Below, one piece after another: positions 330-10,646 of a DNA stretch of 16,376 nt (the first letter of the stretch is position 1; the number at the start of each line of letters is the position of its first letter). A program made the position numbers and the translations under genes. Below the pieces are notes generated by a model. That model worked only from the letters and a program-made list of their open reading frames with translations, made no database searches and was not told the DNA's origin. The stretch lies in contig JBDTZG010000091.1 in NCBI GenBank assembly GCA_040005235.1, positions 1 to 16,376 on the forward strand, given 5' to 3'. The DNA is from Acidobacteriota bacterium (GTDB taxonomy: Bacteria; Acidobacteriota; Thermoanaerobaculia; Multivoradales; UBA5704).

Positions 330-1565
330 CTAAAGGAGGCGCTGTGGGCCTTGATGCGACTTCGGAGCCGCACTCTGCGGCCGGAGGGATTCAAGGATCT
401 CTCTCCTGAGCGCGGCAGCCGCCGCCTGGCGGCCGTCCTGAAGGTAGAAATCCACGAGGTCGATACCCACAAGCGCAGCGTCGAAGAGTTGGCCCGCTGC
501 GAGAAATCTTCGGCGGGTTTCGCGAAAGACCTCTTCGGCGCGCTCGCGTTTGCCGAGTCCGGCAAGGGTTGCCGCTTCGACCCAGTCGACCTTGAGCAGG
601 AAGAGTGGTAGTTCTGCGCCAGCGCGCCGAAGACCACTCTCAAATAGGAGCCGTTGGCAACGCCGAAACTCGCCACAATCCACCAGCGTAGCGATCAAAC
701 TCTGACGTGCCGCAAGGGCCAGATCTGGGTCTCGATCGGAATCGATCGCCTGAATCCCCAGCTCGAAGAGGTCGCACGCCACTACGGGGTTTCCTCGATA
801 CCGTTCATAGATCGCGCGGGATATCAGCGTCCGCCCAGCCAAATGCTGGTCGCCGATCCGCCGATAAACCCTCTCAACGTCCCCCAGGATTTCGCATGCG
901 TCATCCCAACAGCGAGTCGAGCTGAGGTATGAAGCATAGAGGCCAGCTATCCGCGCTCCGACCCCTGGGTCTCCGGAACCGATCGCCAGCAACCCTGTCG
1001 CGCGATCGAAGGCGTGGAGCGCGGCACGGAAGCCTTCGTTCAGGCGATAGGCATTACCCAATTCCCCCCAAGCGTCTGCTCGTAGATCAGCCGTCGCTCT
1101 TGGTCCCAAATCCGCCGGATCAAGATCGTCGGCACCAGCCTGAGCCAGGAGAGCGAGCAGCAGCATACTTCGAGGATTGCGATAGCGCTCGGCAAAACTC
1201 TGATCCAGAAGTATCAACACCCGAGAGGATCTCGACGGAGTATCTCGCAGCGGAAGAGCGTCAGCAGGTTCAGCGGGCACGGGTTCTCGATTCTTCCAAT
1301 AGAGCGCTCCCTCAAGGGCCGCGTCGATTGCTGCGTCGTAGTCAATCGGCTGGACCGGGCTGGGGATCATCGCTTCGGACATTCGCTCGAACCGGCAGAA
1401 GAGCTCAACGCCGAAACGCGCTCGACACTTGGTGCACCCGGCGAGGAAATGACGTACAAGGCGGCGCAGCAGCACCCGATCCGGGTGCGCGCTATCCAAT
1501 TGCGCAAGGTGCGCAACCGTCATGTGGAAAACCGCGACGGTCTTTCGCTTTCGCGCCTTGGCCAT
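330..1565 (-). CDS. TPR-like helical repeat protein with N-terminal H-x4-C-x2-C (ZAS/zf-HC2-like) motif; 3' end probably disrupted
   Basis: 411-aa ORF with RHFLAGCTKC near the N-terminus and TPR-like helices (AWGELGNAYRLN). The C-terminal block WVEAATLAGLG...RRRF...FDAALVGIDL matches WLEARALAGLG...RRQF...YDAALAGLDL of 6744..8210. Confidence 0.85.
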   Translation of the reverse strand: MAKARKRKTVAVFHMTVAHLAQLDSAHPDRVLLRRLVRHFLAGCTKCRARFGVELFCRFERMSEAMIPSPVQPIDYDAAIDAALEGALYWKNREPVPAEPADALPLRDTPSRSSRVLILLDQSFAERYRNPRSMLLLALLAQAGADDLDPADLGPRATADLRADAWGELGNAYRLNEGFRAALHAFDRATGLLAIGSGDPGVGARIAGLYASYLSSTRCWDDACEILGDVERVYRRIGDQHLAGRTLISRAIYERYRGNPVVACDLFELGIQAIDSDRDPDLALAARQSLIATLVDCGEFRRCQRLLFESGLRRAGAELPLFLLKVDWVEAATLAGLGKRERAEEVFRETRRRFLAAGQLFDAALVGIDLVDFYLQDGRQAAAAALRREILESLRPQSAAPKSHQGPQRLL

Positions 1566-1784: not shown

Positions 1785-2330
1785 ATGATGGCTGATTCTT
1801 CACTGCCCAGATCTGATATCGCCAATCAGTTCGTTAAAGCATCGCGAATCCGCGCGATGCGCGGGCGCGTCGAGGCCTCGTCGGTCGAGGCGCAGGCGGT
1901 CGTGGTCAAAGAGCGGGCCGCGGCGGGCACTCTGCTCGTGGCGCTCCTCCGTTTGCCCGAACCGGAACGTGAGCCATCTCTACATCTCGACCCGAGGTAC
2001 CACACCGTTTCCTTCGGCCGGCTGCTGCTCGCATCCGGCGGATCTATCGATCCCGGAGAGCGCGAGGCGCTGTCTCGGCTGGCTCTGGCGGTCACCGACC
2101 TCCTGCCGCGAACGGGCCAACGGGCGGTGATGATCGCAAGCCTTCGTTCCTCGGCCCTGTTGCACATCGCCGACGCGTTACGGGATCAGAACCGGCTGGT
2201 TGAGGCCCGCGCCGCCCTCGCGCTCGTTCCAGCGGAGCTCGAGACCTGCGGCGACGTTCTGGACCAAGCGGGAATCCAAGGTGAAGAAAAGCCGCCCGAC
2301 CCGACCGGTCCCCTGGGAGCACAAGGGTGA
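1785..2330 (+). CDS. Truncated member of the same helical/TPR family (pre-TPR domain plus first repeat only)
   Basis: 181 aa. DPGEREALSRLALAVTDLL...LRSSALLHIADALR parallels NPRSMLLLALLAQAGADDL...LRADAWGELGNAYR (330..1565) and RPDTAMKLARLALRSAEL...GHIGNAYR (6744..8210). Its stop overlaps the next start (GTGA). Confidence 0.75.
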   Translation: MMADSSLPRSDIANQFVKASRIRAMRGRVEASSVEAQAVVVKERAAAGTLLVALLRLPEPEREPSLHLDPRYHTVSFGRLLLASGGSIDPGEREALSRLALAVTDLLPRTGQRAVMIASLRSSALLHIADALRDQNRLVEARAALALVPAELETCGDVLDQAGIQGEEKPPDPTGPLGAQG

Positions 2331-2893
2331 TTCATCTGGCGGAACGCAATCGGGCGATCGAACGGCTCGTGGTCGAAGAGCGTGGGCGAATCTTGCGCTA
2401 CTTGAGCGCGCTGCGCGTTCCGCCGCCGAATCGAGAAGACCTGCTCCAGACCGGCCTGGTGTTGCTCCTACAGAAATGGGAGTCGGTCGAGGATCCGTTC
2501 TCGTGGCTGCTCGGCGCTCTGCGCAACCTTCACCGGACCCAGATCCGCGATCAGAGTCGCCGGGAAAGGCTCCTTCAGCCGATGGCGCACCCCACCCCGC
2601 AAGCCATCCTCACGAAATCGATGACGCCCTCCACCCCCGACCTCCGCATCGATCTCACGCGCTGGCTCCTTGCACTCTCCCGCCAGCAGCGGATCCTCGT
2701 CGTGGGCCTCGTCCTGTTTGGCGAGCCGCTCGGCGAGGTGGCGCGACGAGCCGGCGTCAAACCGGCGTCGGCTCAAACTTTGAAGTCTCGTTCCCTCAAG
2801 CGGCTACGACGTCTGGCCGGACGGGACGGCGGCGCGCCGACTCGCCGAGCGCCCGGTGCCCACGATCCGGCGACGAACCGCCGGCTTCGGTAA
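2327..2893 (+). CDS. ECF-type (sigma70 group 4) RNA polymerase sigma factor
   Basis: 188 aa with region 2-like REDLLQTGLVLL..W....DPFSWLLGALRN and region 4-like HTH LSRQQRILV...GEPLGEVARRAGVKPASAQTLKSRSLKRLR. GGGAG at 2315-2319 precedes the GTG start. Confidence 0.85.
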   Translation: MIHLAERNRAIERLVVEERGRILRYLSALRVPPPNREDLLQTGLVLLLQKWESVEDPFSWLLGALRNLHRTQIRDQSRRERLLQPMAHPTPQAILTKSMTPSTPDLRIDLTRWLLALSRQQRILVVGLVLFGEPLGEVARRAGVKPASAQTLKSRSLKRLRRLAGRDGGAPTRRAPGAHDPATNRRLR

Positions 2894-5068: not shown

Positions 5069-5347
5069 TTTTGCAGTGGTGCAACCGACTTTTGCGCTGG
5101 TGCCCCTACGTTTTGCACTTGTGCGCTGGAGTTTTGCCGTGGTGCAACCGCCCAGTGCATAGGTGCGCTGGAACTTTGCACAGGTGCGCTGCAGCTTTGC
5201 AGTAGTGCCCGCGCGTTTTGTACAGGTGCACCGCGAAATTGCACAACTGCATTCCGCCAGTGAACCTGTGCAACGCCGCTGTGCACCTATGCACCCGGAT
5301 TTTGCAGTGGTGCGCGGACGCTATGCACCTCTGCACAGCGCTGTGCA
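5069..5347. repeat. Degenerate 21-bp tandem array, pattern NNN-TGCA-N4-TGC(A/G/C)-N6, 13 units plus a partial unit
   Basis: Units start at 5069, 5090, 5111, 5132, 5153, 5174, 5195, 5216, 5237, 5258, 5279, 5300 and 5321 (the last is 20 bp), with a partial unit at 5341. The second TGC is present in all 13 units and the first TGC in 11 of 13. Confidence 0.93.
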
Positions 5348-5559
5348 TCTGCCTCCCGCCGCTGTAGCCCCGCGGCCGGAACGCGGTGGAGGTGTCACAG
5401 GAACCGGCGTACAAAGAACGGAAACGAAAGGACTTGGGCCTGGCGCCCGGTGCTTTGGTTCCGGGAACTGCGCTCCACTTCCCGGGGGAAATGTCCCGAG
5501 ATCACCGGCGGTGACGCCGGCCCCCGGCGCCGTCTCCGGCTCCTTCCGCTCGGCGGTCT

Positions 5560-5886
5560 TCAGGAAAGTCCCCGGCTTCGCCGCTCGAAAAACTCCGCTT
5601 CCAAATCTGCGTCCGTGACCTGACCCGCGCGCTGCAATTCACGAATCGCAGGCCGCACGTAGTCCTCAAGTGCGCATTCGATCGTTGCGAGCACCTCCGT
5701 CGCCACGTCGAACGGCTTGCGGTGCTCTTGCCGGTCGTTCAGATCCGCAGGGGGCGGCAGGCTTTCGTGGACCAGCTCCAAAGCGTCCGCAACTCCGAGA
5801 AGCTGGTTGACCACCTCACCGAGCGCCAGCTGTGCCCGCTCGACCGTCAACGGCTCAGTCACCTTGCTCCCCGGGGTGTTAGCCAC
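5560..5886 (-). CDS. Small acidic helical hypothetical protein (108 aa)
   Basis: Start re-called to GTG at 5886, one base after the upstream ORF's TGA and preceded by AAGGA. Protein-like helical sequence (VERAQLALGEVVNQLLGVADALELV...DVATEVLATIECALEDYVRPAIRELQRA). Confidence 0.75.
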   Translation of the reverse strand: MANTPGSKVTEPLTVERAQLALGEVVNQLLGVADALELVHESLPPPADLNDRQEHRKPFDVATEVLATIECALEDYVRPAIRELQRAGQVTDADLEAEFFERRSRGLS

Positions 5887-6743: not shown

Positions 6744-8210
6744 TTGAGCCCCCCATCCCCAAAATCCCGCAAGCCCCCGACCGGTGCGGTGCTGCGCCAG
6801 ATCCGCGAGGATCTCGACCTCACCCAGGCCGGGCTGGCCGCGATCCTCCAGGTAACGACCCATACGATCTCCGATTGGGAGCGCGAAGATATTCTCAGTC
6901 CCACTCGGCTCGTTCGCGTCGCCGAACAGCTGGGCGTACCTCCGCAGGTGGTCGACGCGTATCTTGCGGCCCACCAGCTCCACCGCCACGCCCAAGCCCT
7001 CGACCTCCCCATACCTCTCGCCCCAAACGCCTCGACCGGCCTGTGGGCCACCGCGACGTCGATTTCCGGAGTCGCTCACGGCTCCCTCCTGGATACTCAC
7101 CTCTCCGCCCAGGCCCAGGCCGACCGCGCCGCGGCCGCGGCCCATTGGGCGGCTTTGTCGGCCGCCGCGGAAGTCGATCGCGGTGTCCTGATCGAGTTCG
7201 CGCCCGACGTGGCTACCTGGGCGCTCGTCGAGCGCTTGGCTGCCGAAAGCATCGAAGAGGCGCCCGACCGGCCGGACACCGCGATGAAGCTCGCCCGGCT
7301 GGCGCTCCGTTCGGCCGAGCTGGCGCCGGTTTCCGAGGCGCTCCGCGCTTGTCTGCTCGGGTACGCCCACGGGCACATCGGCAACGCGTACCGGGTCGCC
7401 GCCGAACTCCGCCCGGCCGAGGCGGAATTCGTCATAGCCCGAGAGTACTGGCCCGAGGGGATGACCGCGCCGGCCGGCCTGCTTTCCGAGGCTCGTCTCT
7501 TCGACCTGGAGGCCTCCCTCCGTCGCGATCTCCGACAGTTCGATAAAGCCCTCGAGTTGCTCGATCGGGCACTCGCCTTGACCCCCAACGGGCCGGCCGC
7601 CGGCCAGATCCTCTTGAATCGGAGCGCGGCTCTCAGGCAGATGCAAGACCCCGAGGGGTCTTTAGAGGCACTGCGCCGCGCAATACCAGCCTTCGGCGAA
7701 CAGTTGGCCGGCCGGCCCCGCTTTCAGGCTCTGTTCAACCTATCCTCAACCCTGCTCGACGTGGGCCGCTTTTCCGAGTCTCTCGAGCTTCTTCCGGAGG
7801 TGCGCGACCTCGCAACCCAATTGCGCCGTCAGTACGATCTGATCCGCCTGCTCTGGCTCGAAGCTCGCGCGCTGGCAGGCCTTGGCCGACTTGACGCCGC
7901 GATCGTTGGCCTCGACCAGGTGCGCAGACAATTCACAGCCCTGAGAAACCCCTACGACGCGGCGCTCGCGGGCCTCGACCTGGCCGCTCTGTACCTTGAA
8001 GCCGGGAAGAATTCCGAAACTCGCGATCTTGCGCGCCAGTTGGCGAAGGTTTTCGACGCGCTCCGAATCAAGCGTGAACAGTTCGCCGCTGTCCGCCTGT
8101 TCCTTGACGCCGCAGAGCGGGAGGCGGCTACGGCCGAGATGGCCCGGCGAGCGGCGGCTTCCTTGCGCGCCGTTCGCCGAACCCAAGAAACCGATGATAA
8201 GTGCGCCTGA
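6744..8210 (+). CDS. XRE/Cro-type HTH + TPR-array transcriptional regulator (RRNPP-like architecture)
   Basis: N-terminal GAVLRQIREDLDLTQAGLAAILQVTTHTISDWERE is an XRE HTH, followed by multiple TPR-like repeats (RQFDKALELLDRALAL; ALFNLSSTLLDVGRFSESLELL). TTG start with GAGGA at 6730-6734. Confidence 0.9.
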   Translation: MSPPSPKSRKPPTGAVLRQIREDLDLTQAGLAAILQVTTHTISDWEREDILSPTRLVRVAEQLGVPPQVVDAYLAAHQLHRHAQALDLPIPLAPNASTGLWATATSISGVAHGSLLDTHLSAQAQADRAAAAAHWAALSAAAEVDRGVLIEFAPDVATWALVERLAAESIEEAPDRPDTAMKLARLALRSAELAPVSEALRACLLGYAHGHIGNAYRVAAELRPAEAEFVIAREYWPEGMTAPAGLLSEARLFDLEASLRRDLRQFDKALELLDRALALTPNGPAAGQILLNRSAALRQMQDPEGSLEALRRAIPAFGEQLAGRPRFQALFNLSSTLLDVGRFSESLELLPEVRDLATQLRRQYDLIRLLWLEARALAGLGRLDAAIVGLDQVRRQFTALRNPYDAALAGLDLAALYLEAGKNSETRDLARQLAKVFDALRIKREQFAAVRLFLDAAEREAATAEMARRAAASLRAVRRTQETDDKCA

Positions 8211-8228
8211 TCTCCAATCCATTCAACG

Positions 8229-8558
8229 CTACGGCTTGCAACCTCCGTTTCCATCAATGTCGCAACCGGCCTCCCGATCGACCGCCAGGCCGCTCCGGCA
8301 ACTTCCGTTCCCATCAATGCCGCAACCGATCTCCCTCTCGGCCGCCGCACCGCTCCGGCAACGGCCATCCGGATCCATGATGCACCCCTCCTCTCCCCAA
8401 ACCGCCGACAGGGAGCCCCAGAGCCGGCCGACCCACGACGACACCCCTCCCTCATCCCACCCTGAGGAAGCTCGGGCTGCAGGGGGGCTCAAGAACGCCA
8501 AGACGAGAAAGCACAGGACCAAGGCGGGAACCAACGGACGCGACGTCGGTTTGGACAT
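8229..8558 (-). CDS. Secreted multi-core peptide precursor (109 aa) with three GCx[IM]D[PG][DN]GxC cores
   Basis: AAGGAG RBS at 8571-8566. Sec-type signal peptide ending in A-R-A, then a Trp-rich segment SWVGRLWGSLSAVWG, then cores GCIMDPDGRC, GCGIDGNGSC and GCDIDGNGGC. Confidence 0.88.
   Translation of the reverse strand: MSKPTSRPLVPALVLCFLVLAFLSPPAARASSGWDEGGVSSWVGRLWGSLSAVWGEEGCIMDPDGRCRSGAAAEREIGCGIDGNGSCRSGLAVDREAGCDIDGNGGCKP
8238..8390 (-). repeat. 60-bp (20-codon) tandem repeat encoding the three peptide cores
   Basis: Cores at 8358-8387, 8298-8327 and 8238-8267, with an exact 60-bp period. Linkers are RSGAAAEREI and RSGLAVDREA. Confidence 0.93.
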
Positions 8559-8584
8559 GACGGTTCTCCTTACGCCGAGGGATA

Positions 8585-8632
8585 CGTGGCGTTATGCCAC
8601 GCTCTTCGACGAAAAAACCGGACTTTTCCGGT
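8585..8632. promoter_or_regulatory. Two palindromes in the divergent peptide/double-HTH spacer, candidate operators
   Basis: CGTGGC-GTTAT-GCCACG at 8585-8601 and ACCGGA-CTTT-TCCGGT at 8617-8632, both with perfect 6-bp arms. Confidence 0.45.
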
Positions 8633-8641
8633 AAAACCATC

Positions 8642-9949
8642 ATGATTCATGATTCCGATTCTCTTCACACCCCCGAAGAAAGGCGTTTCCACCCCGCGGC
8701 GATCGTCGTTCGCCTTCTTCTCGCGTTGGGTGCGCTCACCCAGGCGCGACTCGCGAAAGCCTCCGGGGTCGATCAGAGCCTCATCTCGTTTTTTCAGCGG
8801 GGAGAGAAGGTCCCGAGCCCCGCGACACTCGCGCGGCTTGCCCAGGCCGCCGTCTGGCCCCTCCCCTTGGTCGAGCAGATGGCCGCCGCCGCAATCCGGT
8901 TCCGCGACAACCCGACGACGCTGTCGCTCGACTCACCCGCCGCCGCAATTGGCCGGCAGGTCGCGATCCTCGTCGAGGCCGCTCTGTTCGACCTTTGGTT
9001 GCTCCTACGGGCCGACCGCTCCGCGCGCATCCCGCGCGAGCCTTCCGCTCAAGATGCAATCGCCGAGGATCTCTGGGCACGGTTGAAGACTCTCAACGCT
9101 CGCCAGCGGCGAGTCCTGGTTGACTTCTCTCCGGCCTTCCGTCAGCCGAGCCTTGTTCTTCGGCTGGAACTTGAGAGCGAGCGGCTCGCCGCCGAGCGTC
9201 CTGCGGACGCCGCAGAACTCGCCCGGCTCGCGCAGCACATCGCGTCGCTTTGCAGGGACGCCAAGGCTACCCCGGCAGGCCCGACGCGGCGAGGTCGCGC
9301 AGCTCCTCGGCAACCTCTTGAAGCGCCCGCCGAAAGGTGTTTTCGCCACGAGGCGATCGTTATTCGCCTCCTTCTCGCCCTAGGAGGGCTCACCCGGGCG
9401 CGACTCGCAGAAGCCTCCGGGGTCGACCTGAGTCTCATCTCGTTTTTTCAGCGGGGCAAGCTGGTCCCGAGCCCCGAGACGCTCGCGCGGCTAGCCCAAG
9501 CCGCCGGCTGGCCCCTTCCCCTGGTCGAGCCGATGGCCACCGCCGCAATCCGATTCCGCGACAACCCCGCGATCCTCGAACCGGTGCCGCTCGAATCCCC
9601 CGCCGCCGACGTCGGCCGCCGGGTCGCGGTCCTCGCCGAGGCGGCTTTGCTCGACTTCGGCGTGCTCCTACCGGGCCACCGCTCCGCGCGCACCCCGAGC
9701 GAGCCTTCCGCTGACGATGCGATCGCCGAGGATCTTTGGGCGCGGTTAAAGACTCTTGACCCTCGCCAGCGCCGGGTCTTGATCGACTTCTCTTCGGCCT
9801 TTCGTCAGAAGAGCCTCGCCCTTCGCTTGGCCCAGGAGGGGGAGCACCTGGCGGTGGACCGTCCCGAGGAAGCGGCCGAGCTGGCCCGGCTCGCGCTGCA
9901 TGTCGAGGCGCTGTGCGGGTGGCTCGTTTTAAGGCGCTCGCGCACCTGA
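8642..9949 (+). CDS. Tandem-duplicated XRE-HTH + helical domain protein lacking the TPR array
   Basis: Two copies of LT[QR]ARLA[KE]ASGVD.SLISFFQRG..VPSP.TLARLAQAA, each followed by AEDLWARLKTL..RQRRVL.DFS.AFRQ.SL.LRL..E.E.LA..RP..AAELARLA. The start may be 8594 or 8642. Confidence 0.88.
   Translation: MIHDSDSLHTPEERRFHPAAIVVRLLLALGALTQARLAKASGVDQSLISFFQRGEKVPSPATLARLAQAAVWPLPLVEQMAAAAIRFRDNPTTLSLDSPAAAIGRQVAILVEAALFDLWLLLRADRSARIPREPSAQDAIAEDLWARLKTLNARQRRVLVDFSPAFRQPSLVLRLELESERLAAERPADAAELARLAQHIASLCRDAKATPAGPTRRGRAAPRQPLEAPAERCFRHEAIVIRLLLALGGLTRARLAEASGVDLSLISFFQRGKLVPSPETLARLAQAAGWPLPLVEPMATAAIRFRDNPAILEPVPLESPAADVGRRVAVLAEAALLDFGVLLPGHRSARTPSEPSADDAIAEDLWARLKTLDPRQRRVLIDFSSAFRQKSLALRLAQEGEHLAVDRPEEAAELARLALHVEALCGWLVLRRSRT
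8672..9916 (+). repeat. Intragenic direct duplication: about 8672-9253 and 9326-9916
   Basis: Nucleotide-level similarity throughout. The offset is 654 bp at the start and 663 bp at the end (9-bp in-frame indel). Confidence 0.93.
9864..9905 (+). repeat. Direct repeat copy 1 (partner at 11119-11160)
   Basis: CCGAGGAAGCGGCCGAGCTGGCCCGGCTCGC versus CCGAGGAAGCGGCCGGGCTGACCCGGCTCGC: 29/31 identical, and 35/42 over the extended match (hand count). Confidence 0.85.
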
Positions 9950-9968
9950 TCTTTTAAAGGAGGTCGAA

Positions 9969-10646
9969 ATGCGTCGAATTGCTGCTGCTCTGCTGATCGT
10001 CGTCCCAACCCTTGCCGGGGCTGCCCACGGCCAGGATTCTCCGCGGCCGCCCTGGAAGTGGACCGATGAGGAGCGAATCGCCAAACGCTATGACCCTTCT
10101 TCCATGCACTCCCGCGAAAACGACTACATCGCGAAGACGGAAGGCGCCGCTGTTGCCATCGGACGCGACGTCGTGGATGGCGACAAAAACCCCGAGCTCT
10201 TCCTACCCTCCGAGGTCTATCAAGGCCTCCTCAGGCGGGCCTTCTCTTCCGTGCCCGAGGCCAGCCAGGTCTTTCGCGACGGATATCAGTCCAAGTCCGG
10301 TGGCCTGCGGATCGACGACGACTTCTGGCAGCGACTTGAACGAACCGCCCGGCCCTATCTGGATTCGACCAAGGCGCAGCTAGCGCTCGTGAAGGAGTAT
10401 CAGACGGCGCACCCCGGCAGGCGGGCGGAAATCGACCGCCAGGCCGACGAGCGCGGCATCACGGATTGCCGGCTGGTCATCCAGAACCTCGAGGCGGCGC
10501 GCGCGACCTTCGGCCGGGAGGCGTTCGATCGCTTCCTCTACGAGGCTGTTGCGCCCGGCATGTCCAGTATCTCCGTCAATGGTGCCTCCGTCGACAGCTA
10601 CCTCTCCGCCGACCACCTTCGCTACCTCGCAGGAGGCTGCCAATGA
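9969..10646 (+). CDS. Secreted helical hypothetical protein (225 aa)
   Basis: AAGGAGG RBS at 9957-9963 and signal peptide ending A-H-G. It has two Cys (DCRL and terminal GGCQ). No family assigned. Confidence 0.85.
   Translation: MRRIAAALLIVVPTLAGAAHGQDSPRPPWKWTDEERIAKRYDPSSMHSRENDYIAKTEGAAVAIGRDVVDGDKNPELFLPSEVYQGLLRRAFSSVPEASQVFRDGYQSKSGGLRIDDDFWQRLERTARPYLDSTKAQLALVKEYQTAHPGRRAEIDRQADERGITDCRLVIQNLEAARATFGREAFDRFLYEAVAPGMSSISVNGASVDSYLSADHLRYLAGGCQ

What the first reader, a model, noticed from the sequence alone, without database searches (positions are those of the whole stretch)
8642..9949. Single-chain pseudo-dimer: two fused HTH modules that stop where the receptor's TPR array begins
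Seen: each half has an XRE HTH plus the helical segment homologous to the receptor's AAAHWAAL...DRPDTAMKLARLALRSAEL, and ends before the first GNAYR repeat. The frame is intact across both copies and the putative recognition helix SLISFFQRG is identical. Inference: a ligand-blind, pre-dimerised repressor or dominant-negative partner that could set the threshold of the neighbouring peptide gene.
Basis: partly seen in the sequence, partly recalled or inferred. Interest (0 to 1): 0.7.

Follow-up and report, generated by a model that had tools for sequence, protein, structure and literature searches.

The report
Naturally fused double DNA-binding regulator
A small gene regulator that sits beside a secreted-peptide gene in a soil acidobacterium has been duplicated head-to-tail inside its own gene, so that one protein chain now carries two complete DNA-binding units that probably pair with each other, a natural version of the "single-chain dimers" that protein engineers build.

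Summary
ORF 8642..9949 (alternative start 8594) holds two in-frame copies of a ~200-residue module, an XRE-type HTH plus a helical tail. The copies are 71% identical in protein and 78-84% in DNA. Neither copy has a TPR match.

It is not an assembly artefact. Two relatives about 80% identical carry the same fusion, and contigs from another sample cross the junction. Close relatives, including the syntenic gene of a congener, have one module. A tree points to one duplication. Both halves are under purifying selection (omega 0.28-0.38; 0 of 2000 bootstraps reach 1).

The gene is the third member (R2) of a cassette: HTH-TPR regulator, small secreted Cys-loop peptide, short regulator. This scan already reported that cassette on other contigs of this genome, but not the fused form.

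A complex prediction pairs the two halves through their HTH domains (0.71 against 0.00 for controls). The whole-chain AlphaFold model does not fix the arrangement (pTM 0.38).

A 16-bp palindrome (8617-8632) is the candidate operator. Its arms are invariant in 7 of 7 related loci.

"Pre-dimerised and TPR-less" is supported. Repressor, dominant-negative and threshold roles are untested. This is a new variant of a known kind, of moderate interest.

The parts
8642..9949 (+). R2 regulator gene carrying the in-frame tandem duplication (435 aa from ATG 8642; 451 aa if ATG 8594 is used)
   Evidence: Open frame. P0004 is the 435-aa called product. Orthologs P0005 and P0006 have the same architecture.
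8663..9253 (+). Module A (P0001 residues 24-220): XRE HTH, connecting helix, 4-helix tail
   Evidence: AlphaFold2 whole-chain model: HTH helices 18-89 and tail helices 136-209 in P0004 numbering, pLDDT mostly >90.
9254..9316 (+). Linker (residues 221-241, RDAKATPAGPTRRGRAAPRQP), derived from the ancestral basic C-terminal tail; the duplication junction lies at about 9314/9315
   Evidence: Alignment with single-module P0007/P0008 and with the C-tail of P0005. DNA junction comparison. pLDDT <50 at model residues 213-224.
9317..9916 (+). Module B (residues 242-441). Its last ~60 codons are closer to the single-module gene of G016 than to the G015 ortholog (mosaic).
   Evidence: Windowed nucleotide identity: B0 vs S16 0.82-0.85 against B0 vs B15 0.72-0.73. 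AlphaFold2 model of this half: pLDDT 86.8.
9917..9949 (+). Short C-terminal end (GWLVLRRSRT, stop). The basic tail kept by P0005, P0007 and P0008 is missing here.
8617..8632 (.). 16-bp palindrome ACCGGA-N4-TCCGGT, candidate operator, 10 nt upstream of ATG 8642 and 59 nt upstream of the peptide gene's ATG
   Evidence: Both arms are invariant and the 4 central bases vary in 7 of 7 genus loci. 2 exact copies in the 6.2-Mb genome against 0.73 expected. It also scores as a weak terminator-like hairpin on the minus strand.
8585..8601 (.). Second palindrome CGTGGC-N5-GCCACG, imperfect in relatives; its centre lies 31.5 bp from the first palindrome's centre
   Evidence: Sequences of the relatives. Weak evidence, not tested further.
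8229..8558 (-). Divergent small secreted peptide gene (109 aa): hydrophobic N-terminal leader, W..LS.LW motif, three C-x-[IM]-D-x-[DN]-G-x-C loops; AAGGAG 6 nt before its ATG
   Evidence: It belongs to a 23-member peptide family in this genome. The 60-nt tandem repeat at 8238-8357 encodes the loops.
6744..8210 (+). R1: full-length HTH-TPR regulator of the cassette (488 aa)
   Evidence: Pfam HTH_3 E 4e-10 and TPR_12 35.6 bits against cut-off 30.1. Homology to both halves of R2.

Best explanation
The gene encodes the short, TPR-less second regulator (R2) of an acidobacterial cassette: HTH-TPR regulator, secreted Cys-loop peptide, short regulator. In one lineage within the genus, an internal in-frame tandem duplication of about 654 bp joined a point in the basic C-terminal tail back to about codon 8 (counted from ATG 8642). 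One chain therefore carries two complete modules (XRE HTH plus 4-helix tail) joined by a disordered linker of about 20 residues (shown). The most likely working model has inferred steps. The two HTH domains pair with each other within the chain, through helix 1 and the helix after the HTH, as the single-module ancestor would pair as a homodimer. The resulting pseudo-dimer, whose pairing does not depend on concentration, binds the conserved palindrome ACCGGA-N4-TCCGGT in the 83-bp region between its own start and the divergent peptide gene. From there it controls one or both promoters without sensing the peptide, since it has no TPR array. Covalent linkage also lets the halves diverge: half B has lost the Gln that precedes the recognition helix in the other modules examined.
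For: Real and inherited:
- Orthologs P0005 (461 aa, 81% identical) and P0006 (464 aa, 82%) have the same double architecture.
- G015:C111 carries it next to the same peptide gene.
- Logan contigs of X1 and X2 span 8200-10200 with 0 differences. X3, another sample that is 90-96% alike, has a piece at 9268-9427 across the junction.

Single-module state in close relatives:
- P0007 (258 aa) and P0008 (259 aa) have one module.
- So does the syntenic gene of G016:C53.

One duplication event:
- The A halves of three lineages form a clade with 99/98 support.

Selection on both halves:
- Omega A0-A15 is 0.38 (CI 0.22-0.65).
- Omega B0-B15 is 0.28 (CI 0.18-0.45).
- Omega A0-B0 is 0.36.
- 0 of 2000 bootstraps reach 1.

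Pairing:
- Complex prediction on half A plus half B scored 0.71 (runs 0.76, 0.70, 0.71). The best of 3 controls scored 0.00.
- That mark was reached by 58 of 80 solved complexes and 2 of 110 mismatched pairs.
- The runs share at least 41% of contacts, and the partner's pLDDT is at least 70.
- The interface is symmetric: chain 1 residues 15-31, 52, 72-87; chain 2 residues 12-28, 49-50, 69-84.

Fold:
- The HTH domain matches dimeric XRE regulators: 5WOQ Z 12.1 (rmsd 2.4, 80 aligned), ClgR 3F51 Z 11.8, C.BclI Z 11.1.

Operator:
- The palindrome arms are invariant in 7 of 7 loci whose R2 proteins are 53-84% identical to P0001.
- Other cassettes of this genome have ACC...GGT-framed palindromes of their own at the same place: C76, C107, C111 and C59.

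No TPR:
-.
Against: - AlphaFold2 on the whole chain gives pTM 0.38 and a disordered inter-half linker, so it does not define any inter-half arrangement. The half alone gives pTM 0.50.
- The complex prediction pass may reflect memory of solved XRE homodimers. My own alignments were used, so the calibration counts hold only roughly.
- The palindrome is not significant by itself. In the window's region a 7-bp-arm palindrome is matched by 40 of 1000 shuffles. In the other 11 cassettes scored, the best palindrome is matched by 66 to 995 of 1000 shuffles.
- The same sequence scores as a weak terminator-like hairpin followed by T6 on the minus strand.
- No sigma-70-like promoter was found in 8150-10100.
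- Omega of 0.3-0.4 is only moderate constraint.
- The start codon is ambiguous. If ATG 8594 is used, the palindrome lies inside the coding sequence.
- No DNA binding, expression or regulation was measured.
Confidence: 0.5

Rival explanations
1. The halves do not pair within a chain. Each pairs with a half of another chain, or with the HTH of R1 or of paralogous regulators. This would give chains or tetramer-like assemblies that bridge two DNA sites, for example the palindromes at 8585-8601 and 8617-8632, and loop or coat the shared promoter.
For: AlphaFold2 on the whole chain does not fix an intramolecular arrangement (pTM 0.38). Two palindromes lie 31.5 bp apart centre to centre, about three helical turns. 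The genome holds at least 19 matches to this module that could offer partner interfaces.
Against: A disordered linker of about 20 residues plus about 12 N-terminal residues gives a very high local concentration of the cognate half. The predicted A-B interface is a closed, two-fold symmetric one. The second palindrome is imperfect in 5 of 7 loci.
Confidence: 0.2
2. It is a dominant-negative or anti-receptor protein. The receptor-like 4-helix tail(s) bind R1 (6744..8210), or occupy R1's DNA site, and so damp the peptide response.
For: The tail is homologous to R1 residues 146-194 and is the best-conserved part. Omega for the tail is 0.19-0.29 in the four comparisons. R1 and R2 flank the peptide gene in 12 of 23 peptide loci of this genome.
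Against: R1 and R2 differ in the recognition helix (TTHTISDWERE vs DQSLISFFQRG), which argues against a shared DNA site.
Confidence: 0.15
3. It is a tolerated fusion with no new property. The duplication is a near-neutral accident, the protein works exactly like the single-module R2 homodimer, and the second copy persists only because losing it would need a precise deletion.
For: Single-module orthologs with the same palindrome arms exist in the same genus. Multi-HTH forms recur in this protein neighbourhood, in 9 of the 150 best representatives, so duplication is frequent.
Against: Both halves keep open frames and omega well below 1 in three lineages, over a synonymous divergence of 0.46 between the copies. 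Direct repeats 80% alike are easily lost by recombination, yet both copies are retained.
Confidence: 0.15
4. It is an assembly artefact: a collapsed or expanded repeat, or a chimera of two strains.
For: The window is a whole 16.4-kb contig of a metagenome-type assembly. Only contigs, not raw reads, could be laid.
Against: The copies differ at about 20% of bases, so they cannot be confused by an assembler. Two other assemblies, about 80% identical in protein, show the same architecture. X3's contig crosses the junction.
Confidence: 0.02

Closest known systems
Dimeric XRE/Cro-C1 HTH regulators (ClgR 3F51; M. smegmatis XRE protein 5WOQ; R-M controller C-proteins such as C.BclI 2B5A and C.Esp1396I; SinR 1B0N)
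   Same: Each half has the five-helix XRE HTH fold: 5WOQ Z 12.1, ClgR Z 11.8, C.BclI Z 11.1, SinR Z 10.1; Pfam HTH_3 matches twice. The candidate target is a 16-bp inverted repeat. That such proteins bind these repeats as dimers is recalled knowledge.
   Different: Those proteins are non-covalent homodimers of one HTH per chain. Here two HTH-plus-tail modules are in one chain, and each carries a further 4-helix domain that had no match in the PDB searches run. Those searches covered it poorly.
Natural two-HTH XRE proteins, e.g. Wolbachia prophage Wmk
   Same: Two XRE-family HTH domains in one polypeptide (PMC12504857, passages read).
   Different: Homology to Wmk was not tested. Wmk is a prophage gene acting in an insect host. 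Here the whole 200-residue module is duplicated, recently, and single-module orthologs survive for comparison.
Engineered single-chain dimers (single-chain 434 repressor, Cro and Arc), recalled, no paper read
   Same: Two DNA-binding units of a homodimer are linked covalently by a flexible linker, which makes dimerisation independent of concentration and allows asymmetric variants.
   Different: Those are laboratory constructs. This one arose naturally and has been kept under selection.
RRNPP(A) peptide quorum-sensing cassettes of Bacillota (PlcR-PapR, NprR-NprX, Rgg-SHP, PrgX)
   Same: The cassette context matches: an HTH-TPR regulator next to a small secreted peptide gene. PlcR, Rgg2 and NrpR models align weakly over HTH plus following helices (Z 7.2-8.8, rmsd 10-13).
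   Different: The protein in question has no TPR domain. The phylum is Acidobacteriota. The peptides carry repeated Cys loops. A second, short regulator is part of the unit. No paper in the library pairs Acidobacteria or Acidobacteriota with RRNPP (0 hits each).
SinR/SinI-type truncated-paralog antagonists
   Same: A shortened paralog of a regulator is encoded beside the full-length one.
   Different: SinI lacks the DNA-binding domain and keeps the oligomerisation helices (recalled). This protein keeps, and doubles, the DNA-binding domain and lacks the ligand domain.

Membership tests
XRE / Cro-C1 HTH superfamily (Pfam HTH_3 PF01381, HTH_31 PF13560) | Profile match above the curated cut-off | tested here: met
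   HTH_3 52 bits (cut-off 23) and HTH_31 44.6 bits (cut-off 27), two stretches each.
XRE / Cro-C1 HTH superfamily (Pfam HTH_3 PF01381, HTH_31 PF13560) | Five-helix lambda-repressor-like fold | tested here: met
   AlphaFold2 model of half B has pLDDT 86.8. 5WOQ Z 12.1, rmsd 2.4, 80 aligned; ClgR Z 11.8. Foldseek's best hit is ClgR at E 2.7e-3.
XRE / Cro-C1 HTH superfamily (Pfam HTH_3 PF01381, HTH_31 PF13560) | Sequence-specific binding to an inverted-repeat operator | not testable with these tools
   There is only a candidate site, ACCGGA-N4-TCCGGT at 8617-8632.
RRNPP(A) peptide receptors | C-terminal TPR-type peptide-binding domain | tested here: not met
   No TPR family matches P0001 at E <= 0.1. 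Both halves end before the neighbour's first TPR.
RRNPP(A) peptide receptors | Adjacent gene for a small secreted propeptide | tested here: met
   A 109-aa ORF at 8229..8558(-) is divergent from the gene. It has a hydrophobic leader, judged by eye, and an AAGGAG ribosome-binding site. 17 of 23 such peptide ORFs in the genome lie within 1.5 kb of a family HTH gene.
RRNPP(A) peptide receptors | Re-imported mature peptide binds the receptor and switches its activity | not testable with these tools
Single-chain / tandem-HTH XRE regulators (as Wmk) | Two XRE HTH domains in one polypeptide | tested here: met
   9 of the 150 best library representatives also have two or more HTH domains.
Single-chain / tandem-HTH XRE regulators (as Wmk) | The two domains pair within the chain | tested here: inconclusive
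   Complex prediction scored 0.71 against 0.00 for controls, but the whole-chain AlphaFold2 pTM is 0.38.
Acidobacterial R1-peptide-R2 cassette (this scan's earlier notes; undescribed in print as far as searched) | Layout: HTH-TPR gene, opposite-strand Cys-loop peptide gene, then a second family HTH gene divergent from the peptide gene | tested here: met
   In the window: 6744..8210(+), 8229..8558(-), 8642..9949(+). The same layout occurs at 12 of 23 peptide loci of the genome.
SinI-type antagonist | Lacks a DNA-binding domain | tested here: not met
   Two HTH domains are present.

The most novel reading that the evidence does not exclude
In a genome with at least 12 paralogous two-regulator peptide cassettes that share one HTH dimer interface, covalent fusion of the two subunits is an evolved insulation device. 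It would guarantee cognate pairing, with no mixed dimers with paralogs, and make promoter occupancy independent of regulator concentration. It would also free the two DNA-reading heads to diverge: half B has already lost the conserved Gln next to the recognition helix. The single-module and fused orthologs in one genus would then be a natural before-and-after experiment on how a homodimeric repressor becomes an asymmetric single-chain one.
Probability: 0.2. Interest if true: 0.7.

Novelty: new variant of a known kind. Interest (0 to 1): 0.45.

Why it matters
Single-chain versions of dimeric repressors are a classic protein-engineering device. A natural one that arose within a genus, with single-module orthologs and the same candidate operator still available for comparison, would allow a direct test of what covalent dimerisation buys a cell in affinity, cooperativity, insulation from paralogs and asymmetric site recognition. 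It also marks one cassette of the peptide-plus-two-regulator system that is expanded and undescribed in Acidobacteriota. In that cassette the short regulator's dimeric state is fixed, which makes it a convenient entry point for biochemistry on the whole system.

Tried and rejected
- **Assembly artefact:** rejected. Only Logan contigs could be laid, not raw reads. X4's 35-nt piece (9281-9315) runs on into the ancestral C-tail sequence and says nothing either way.
- **RNA evidence:** no RNA holder was listed.
- **Rfam:** 0 matches at gathering score in the window.
- **Sigma-70-type promoters:** 0 found in 8150-10100.
- **NCBIfam:** only sub-threshold HTH families for P0001, and nothing for the peptide or for the 9969..10646 product.
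- **Fold of the 4-helix tail:** Foldseek and VIA-wide rows cover essentially only model residues 8-92. A profile search against PDB sequences gave only HTH and TPR hits. The ESM Atlas gave only Acidobacteriota hypothetical proteins, best score 0.91.
- **Palindrome statistics per cassette:** of 13 cassettes tried, one could not be scored because its anchor motif was not found. The test was weak in the other 12 (40 to 995 of 1000 shuffles match). Several region boundaries were wrong because longest-ORF starts overshoot; C76 and C111 were cut. I therefore rest the operator idea on conservation across 7 loci, not on these tests.
- **Ungapped identity of intergenic versus coding DNA** (0.75 vs 0.70-0.72) is not informative, because one locus has a 1-nt indel.
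- **Whole-chain alignments:** MAFFT put all single-module homologs on one half only. The whole-chain AlphaFold2 model therefore had deep information for one half alone.
- **Terminator-like hairpin:** I considered that the hairpin on the minus strand attenuates the peptide gene. The T-run is absent from the palindromes of other cassettes, so this is less likely, but it is not excluded.
- **Supplementary files** of papers were not consulted.
Full report
**1. The observation**

The window is a whole 16,376-bp contig (C124) of a 6.22-Mb, 140-contig genome with 66% G+C. ORF 8594..9949 (+) is open for 451 codons (P0001).

Two direct DNA repeats cover it. They are 8661-8918 vs 9315-9572 (84% identity) and 8919-9218 vs 9582-9881 (78%). 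The start-to-start spacings are 654 and 663 nt, both multiples of three.

Protein residues 24-220 and 242-441 align at 142 of 200 identities (71%), E 4e-94, with one 3-residue gap. Pfam HTH_3 (52 bits, cut-off 23) and HTH_31 (44.6 bits, cut-off 27) each match twice. No TPR family matches at E <= 0.1.

The neighbour 6744..8210 (P0002) is an HTH plus TPR protein: HTH_3 at E 4e-10 and TPR_12 at 35.6 bits against a cut-off of 30.1. Its residues 26-188 align to P0001 266-435 (34% identity, E 3e-7). Its residues 146-194 align to P0001 172-220 (45% identity, E 8e-5). P0002's GNAYR motif is at residue 213, so both halves do stop where the TPR array begins.

SLISFFQRG is identical in both halves, but the preceding residue is Q in half A and L in half B. 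By my recollection of the 434 repressor, the position aligned with this residue contacts bases. This is recalled, not tested.

**2. Not an artefact, and older than three lineages**

The copies differ at about one base in five. A word-indexed search of 5.8 billion proteins returned two other double-module proteins and two single-module ones:
- P0005: 461 aa, 81% identical. Its source labels it a helix-turn-helix regulator of a Thermoanaerobaculia bacterium.
- P0006: 464 aa, 82% identical.
- P0007 (258 aa, 77%) and P0008 (259 aa, 70%): single-module.

A search of 92 genomes of the same family found a match at E <= 1e-10 in 68. Only G000 and the congener G015 match over both halves in one frame. 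In G015 the gene again lies divergent from a Cys-loop peptide gene.

In another congener, G016, the syntenic cassette has a single-module gene. Its R1 ortholog and peptide gene are recognisable.

Logan contigs of runs X1 and X2, which may be the source samples, span 8200-10200 with no difference. Run X3 is another sample that is 90-96% alike. It has pieces at 8871-9248 and at 9268-9427, and the second crosses the junction. Only contigs were available, not raw reads.

A maximum-likelihood tree of 17 modules puts the three A halves in one clade (99/98). That clade sits inside a 100/100 clade with the three B halves and the two close single-module proteins. The B halves themselves are unresolved. 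This fits one duplication before the three lineages split. It cannot say whether P0007 and P0008 predate the duplication or lost a copy afterwards.

**3. How the duplication happened**

The single-module proteins and P0005 end in a basic tail (...ATPAGPTRRGRAAPRxPRPPARRRxPGRRPQ). In the fused proteins the first part of this tail is the inter-module linker. It is followed directly by LExPxER..., which is residue ~24 of the module.

At DNA level the linker and G015's C-tail are collinear up to ...GGCAACC. The tail then continues with ACGGCC..., while the linker continues with TCTTGAAG..., the counterpart of 8661 onward.

In the window the second copy has lost the basic tail and ends GWLVLRRSRT. 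Its last ~60 codons are closer to G016's single-module gene (82-85% nucleotide identity) than to the G015 ortholog (72-73%). The 3' end is therefore mosaic.

**4. Selection**

Nei-Gojobori estimates between the two halves of the window's gene are dS 0.46, dN 0.17 and omega 0.36. Codon positions 1, 2 and 3 are 84%, 86% and 70% identical.

| Comparison | Omega | Bootstrap 95% interval |
|---|---|---|
| Half A, G000 vs G015 | 0.38 | 0.22-0.65 |
| Half B, G000 vs G015 | 0.28 | 0.18-0.45 |

Of 2000 bootstraps, 0 reach 1 in any of the four comparisons made. Constraint is moderate. It is strongest in the C-terminal tail (omega 0.19-0.29) and weakest in the connecting segment (0.36-0.81).

**5. Context**

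The gene is the third member of a repeated cassette.
- An HMM built from five small ORFs found 23 peptide-like ORFs in the genome at E < 0.01. Each has a hydrophobic leader, a W..LS.LW motif, and then repeats of G-C-x-[IF]-D-P-x-G-x-C or cysteine-free [IV]-D-P-N-G units.
- 17 of the 23 lie within 1.5 kb of a family HTH gene, and 6 do not.
- 12 of the 23 are flanked by two family HTH genes, in the order R1(+), peptide(-), R2(+) or its mirror image.
- R2 is short (122-334 aa by longest ORF) in eight loci, long with TPRs (479-654 aa) in five, and fused-double only in the window.

I had found this cassette before I read that earlier agents of this scan had reported it on other contigs of this genome and placed the genome in Acidobacteriota.

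No paper in the held library contains both RRNPP and Acidobacteria or Acidobacteriota (0 hits each).

An exhaustive phmmer search of 1.84 billion representatives gave 356 proteins at E <= 0.001 and 3 at E <= 1e-30. Of the 150 best:
- 105 are <= 350 aa and 41 are >= 450 aa.
- 9 have two or more HTH domains (P0005, P0030, P0052, P0082, P0098, P0099, P0105, P0137, P0145).
- Only P0005, which represents the window's own cluster, repeats the whole 200-residue module.

**6. Structure**

AlphaFold2 on half B, with a 104-row alignment, gives mean pLDDT 86.8 and pTM 0.50. The model has three parts:
- an HTH domain (residues 9-91);
- a less confident long helix (99-121);
- a confident four-helix tail (136-213).

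Foldseek's best PDB hits are ClgR (3F51, E 2.7e-3) and an M. smegmatis XRE protein (5WOQ); none reaches E <= 0.001. VIA-align against 48,161 chains gives 5WOQ Z 12.1 (rmsd 2.4, 80 aligned), ClgR Z 11.8, C.BclI Z 11.1 and SinR Z 10.1. These rows cover only model residues 8-92. PlcR, Rgg2 and NrpR align over more of the chain, but at rmsd 10-13 (Z 7.2-8.8).

The tail was not tested on its own. A profile search against PDB sequences and an ESM Atlas look-up gave nothing beyond HTH, TPR and Acidobacteriota hypothetical proteins.

Complex prediction was run with half A and half B as separate chains, each with its own alignment.
- The score was 0.71 (runs 0.76, 0.70, 0.71), and the best of three controls scored 0.00.
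- That mark was reached by 58 of 80 solved complexes and by 2 of 110 mismatched pairs.
- The runs share at least 41% of contacts, and the partner's pLDDT is at least 70.
- Because my own alignments were used, these counts hold only roughly.
- The confident contacts are two-fold symmetric. They are made by helix 1 and the helix after the HTH: chain 1 residues 15-31, 52, 72-87; chain 2 residues 12-28, 49-50, 69-84.
- Solved XRE homodimers exist, so the pass may partly be memory of that likeness.

AlphaFold2 on the whole 435-aa chain gives pLDDT 81.8 but pTM 0.38, with the linker (residues 213-224) below pLDDT 50. It therefore neither confirms nor contradicts intramolecular pairing. Its alignment was deep for one half only.

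**7. Candidate operator and start codon**

The 83 nt between the peptide gene's ATG (8558, preceded by AAGGAG) and ATG 8642 are conserved across seven loci of the genus. The R2 proteins at those loci are 53-84% identical to P0001.

The stretch GCGAAAAAACCGGA-N4-TCCGGT(A/C)AAACCATCATGA is invariant apart from the four central bases and that one A/C position. The central bases read CTTT twice, ATTT twice, AATT twice and AAAT once. The palindrome ACCGGA-N4-TCCGGT lies at 8617-8632. It occurs twice in the genome, against 0.73 expected.

Other cassettes of this genome carry similar ACC...GGT-framed palindromes at the corresponding place: ACCCGTTTAAACGGGT (C76), CCCGTTTAAACGGG (C107), ACCCAAAATTTTGGGT (C111) and AACCCAAGTTTTTGGGTT (C59). 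Cassettes with like palindromes have like recognition helices. The cassettes are related by descent, however, so this is not independent covariation.

Taken singly, these palindromes are not significant against shuffles. On the minus strand the window's palindrome plus T6 also scores as a weak terminator-like hairpin.

The palindrome lies inside the putative N-terminal extension MPRSSTKKPDFSGKT. Variable sites there fall 5:3:4 on codon positions 1, 2 and 3 (my count on the sequences). I therefore favour ATG 8642 as the start, but ATG 8594, which is preceded by GAGGGA, is not excluded.

The Gln before the recognition helix is present in 5 of 5 single-module genus proteins, in 3 of 3 A halves and in 1 of 3 B halves. 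It is Leu in the B halves of G000 and P0006 (sequences).

**8. Reading**

Shown:
- a real, inherited, selected in-frame duplication of a whole HTH-plus-tail module in the cassette's short regulator;
- no TPR;
- a flexible linker derived from the old C-tail.

Inferred, in decreasing order of confidence:
- the halves pair through their HTH domains as the ancestral homodimer would;
- the pair binds the conserved palindrome;
- it regulates the peptide gene, itself, or both, without sensing the peptide.

The rivals are listed with their odds: intermolecular bridging, tail-mediated antagonism of R1, and a tolerated neutral fusion.

**9. Comparison and novelty**

Proteins with two XRE HTH domains are known, for example Wolbachia Wmk (PMC12504857, passages read). 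Engineered single-chain repressors are a textbook device (recalled). The kind is therefore known.

What is new here:
- a recent natural fusion of a complete regulator module;
- single-module orthologs and an unchanged candidate operator in the same genus;
- a setting inside a peptide cassette for which my four library searches turned up no description in Acidobacteria.

I rate it a new variant of a known kind, of moderate interest.

Noticed in passing
window 9969-10646 (+): The gene just downstream encodes a 225-aa protein with a signal-peptide-like N-terminus and no Pfam or NCBIfam match. Its only paralog in the genome (C20:12287-13114, E 3e-113) lies about 2 kb from another member of the peptide family (C20:14946-15374). 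It may be cargo or output of the cassettes. It is not conserved downstream of the G015 ortholog.
   Followed up: partly
window 330-1565 (-), with 1785-2330 (+) and 2327-2893 (+): A 411-aa protein without an HTH carries the same GNAYR-type repeat region as the cassette receptors, behind an N-terminus with a CxxC motif. It sits next to a weak ECF-sigma-like gene (Sigma70_r2 and r4_2 below cut-off). It could be a TPR relative of the receptors recruited as an anti-sigma-type partner.
   Followed up: no
window 8238-8357 (peptide gene, minus strand): A 60-nt tandem DNA repeat (82% identity) encodes the second and third Cys loops of the peptide. Peptide paralogs differ in loop number (2 to 4), and some have cysteine-free [IV]DPNG repeats instead.
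   Followed up: partly
G000:C107:5180-5821: The short regulator of the C107 cassette has its HTH in one frame (5190-5513) and its tail in another (5135-5818). This is a frameshifted copy or a sequencing error.
   Followed up: no
G000:C8:56424: A near copy of the window's palindrome (GCCGGAAATTTCCGGT) lies about 1.5 kb upstream of the C8 cassette. It was not examined.
   Followed up: no
proteins P0052, P0099, P0030, P0098, P0082 (library representatives): These are independent multi-HTH chains among relatives. P0052 and P0099 have two HTH-plus-short-helix modules, P0030 and P0098 have three HTH domains, and P0082 has six or more. Internal duplication of XRE modules is therefore recurrent in this protein neighbourhood.
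   Followed up: partly
G017 contigs C10, C4, C47, C77 (loci L012, L025-L027): Fragments 62-80% identical to different parts of P0001 sit at contig ends in congener G017. This could be another fused copy that broke the assembly.
   Followed up: no
window 8638-8652: The palindrome ATCATGAtTCATGAT (7-bp arms) overlaps ATG 8642. It is not conserved in G016 and is imperfect in G015.
   Followed up: partly
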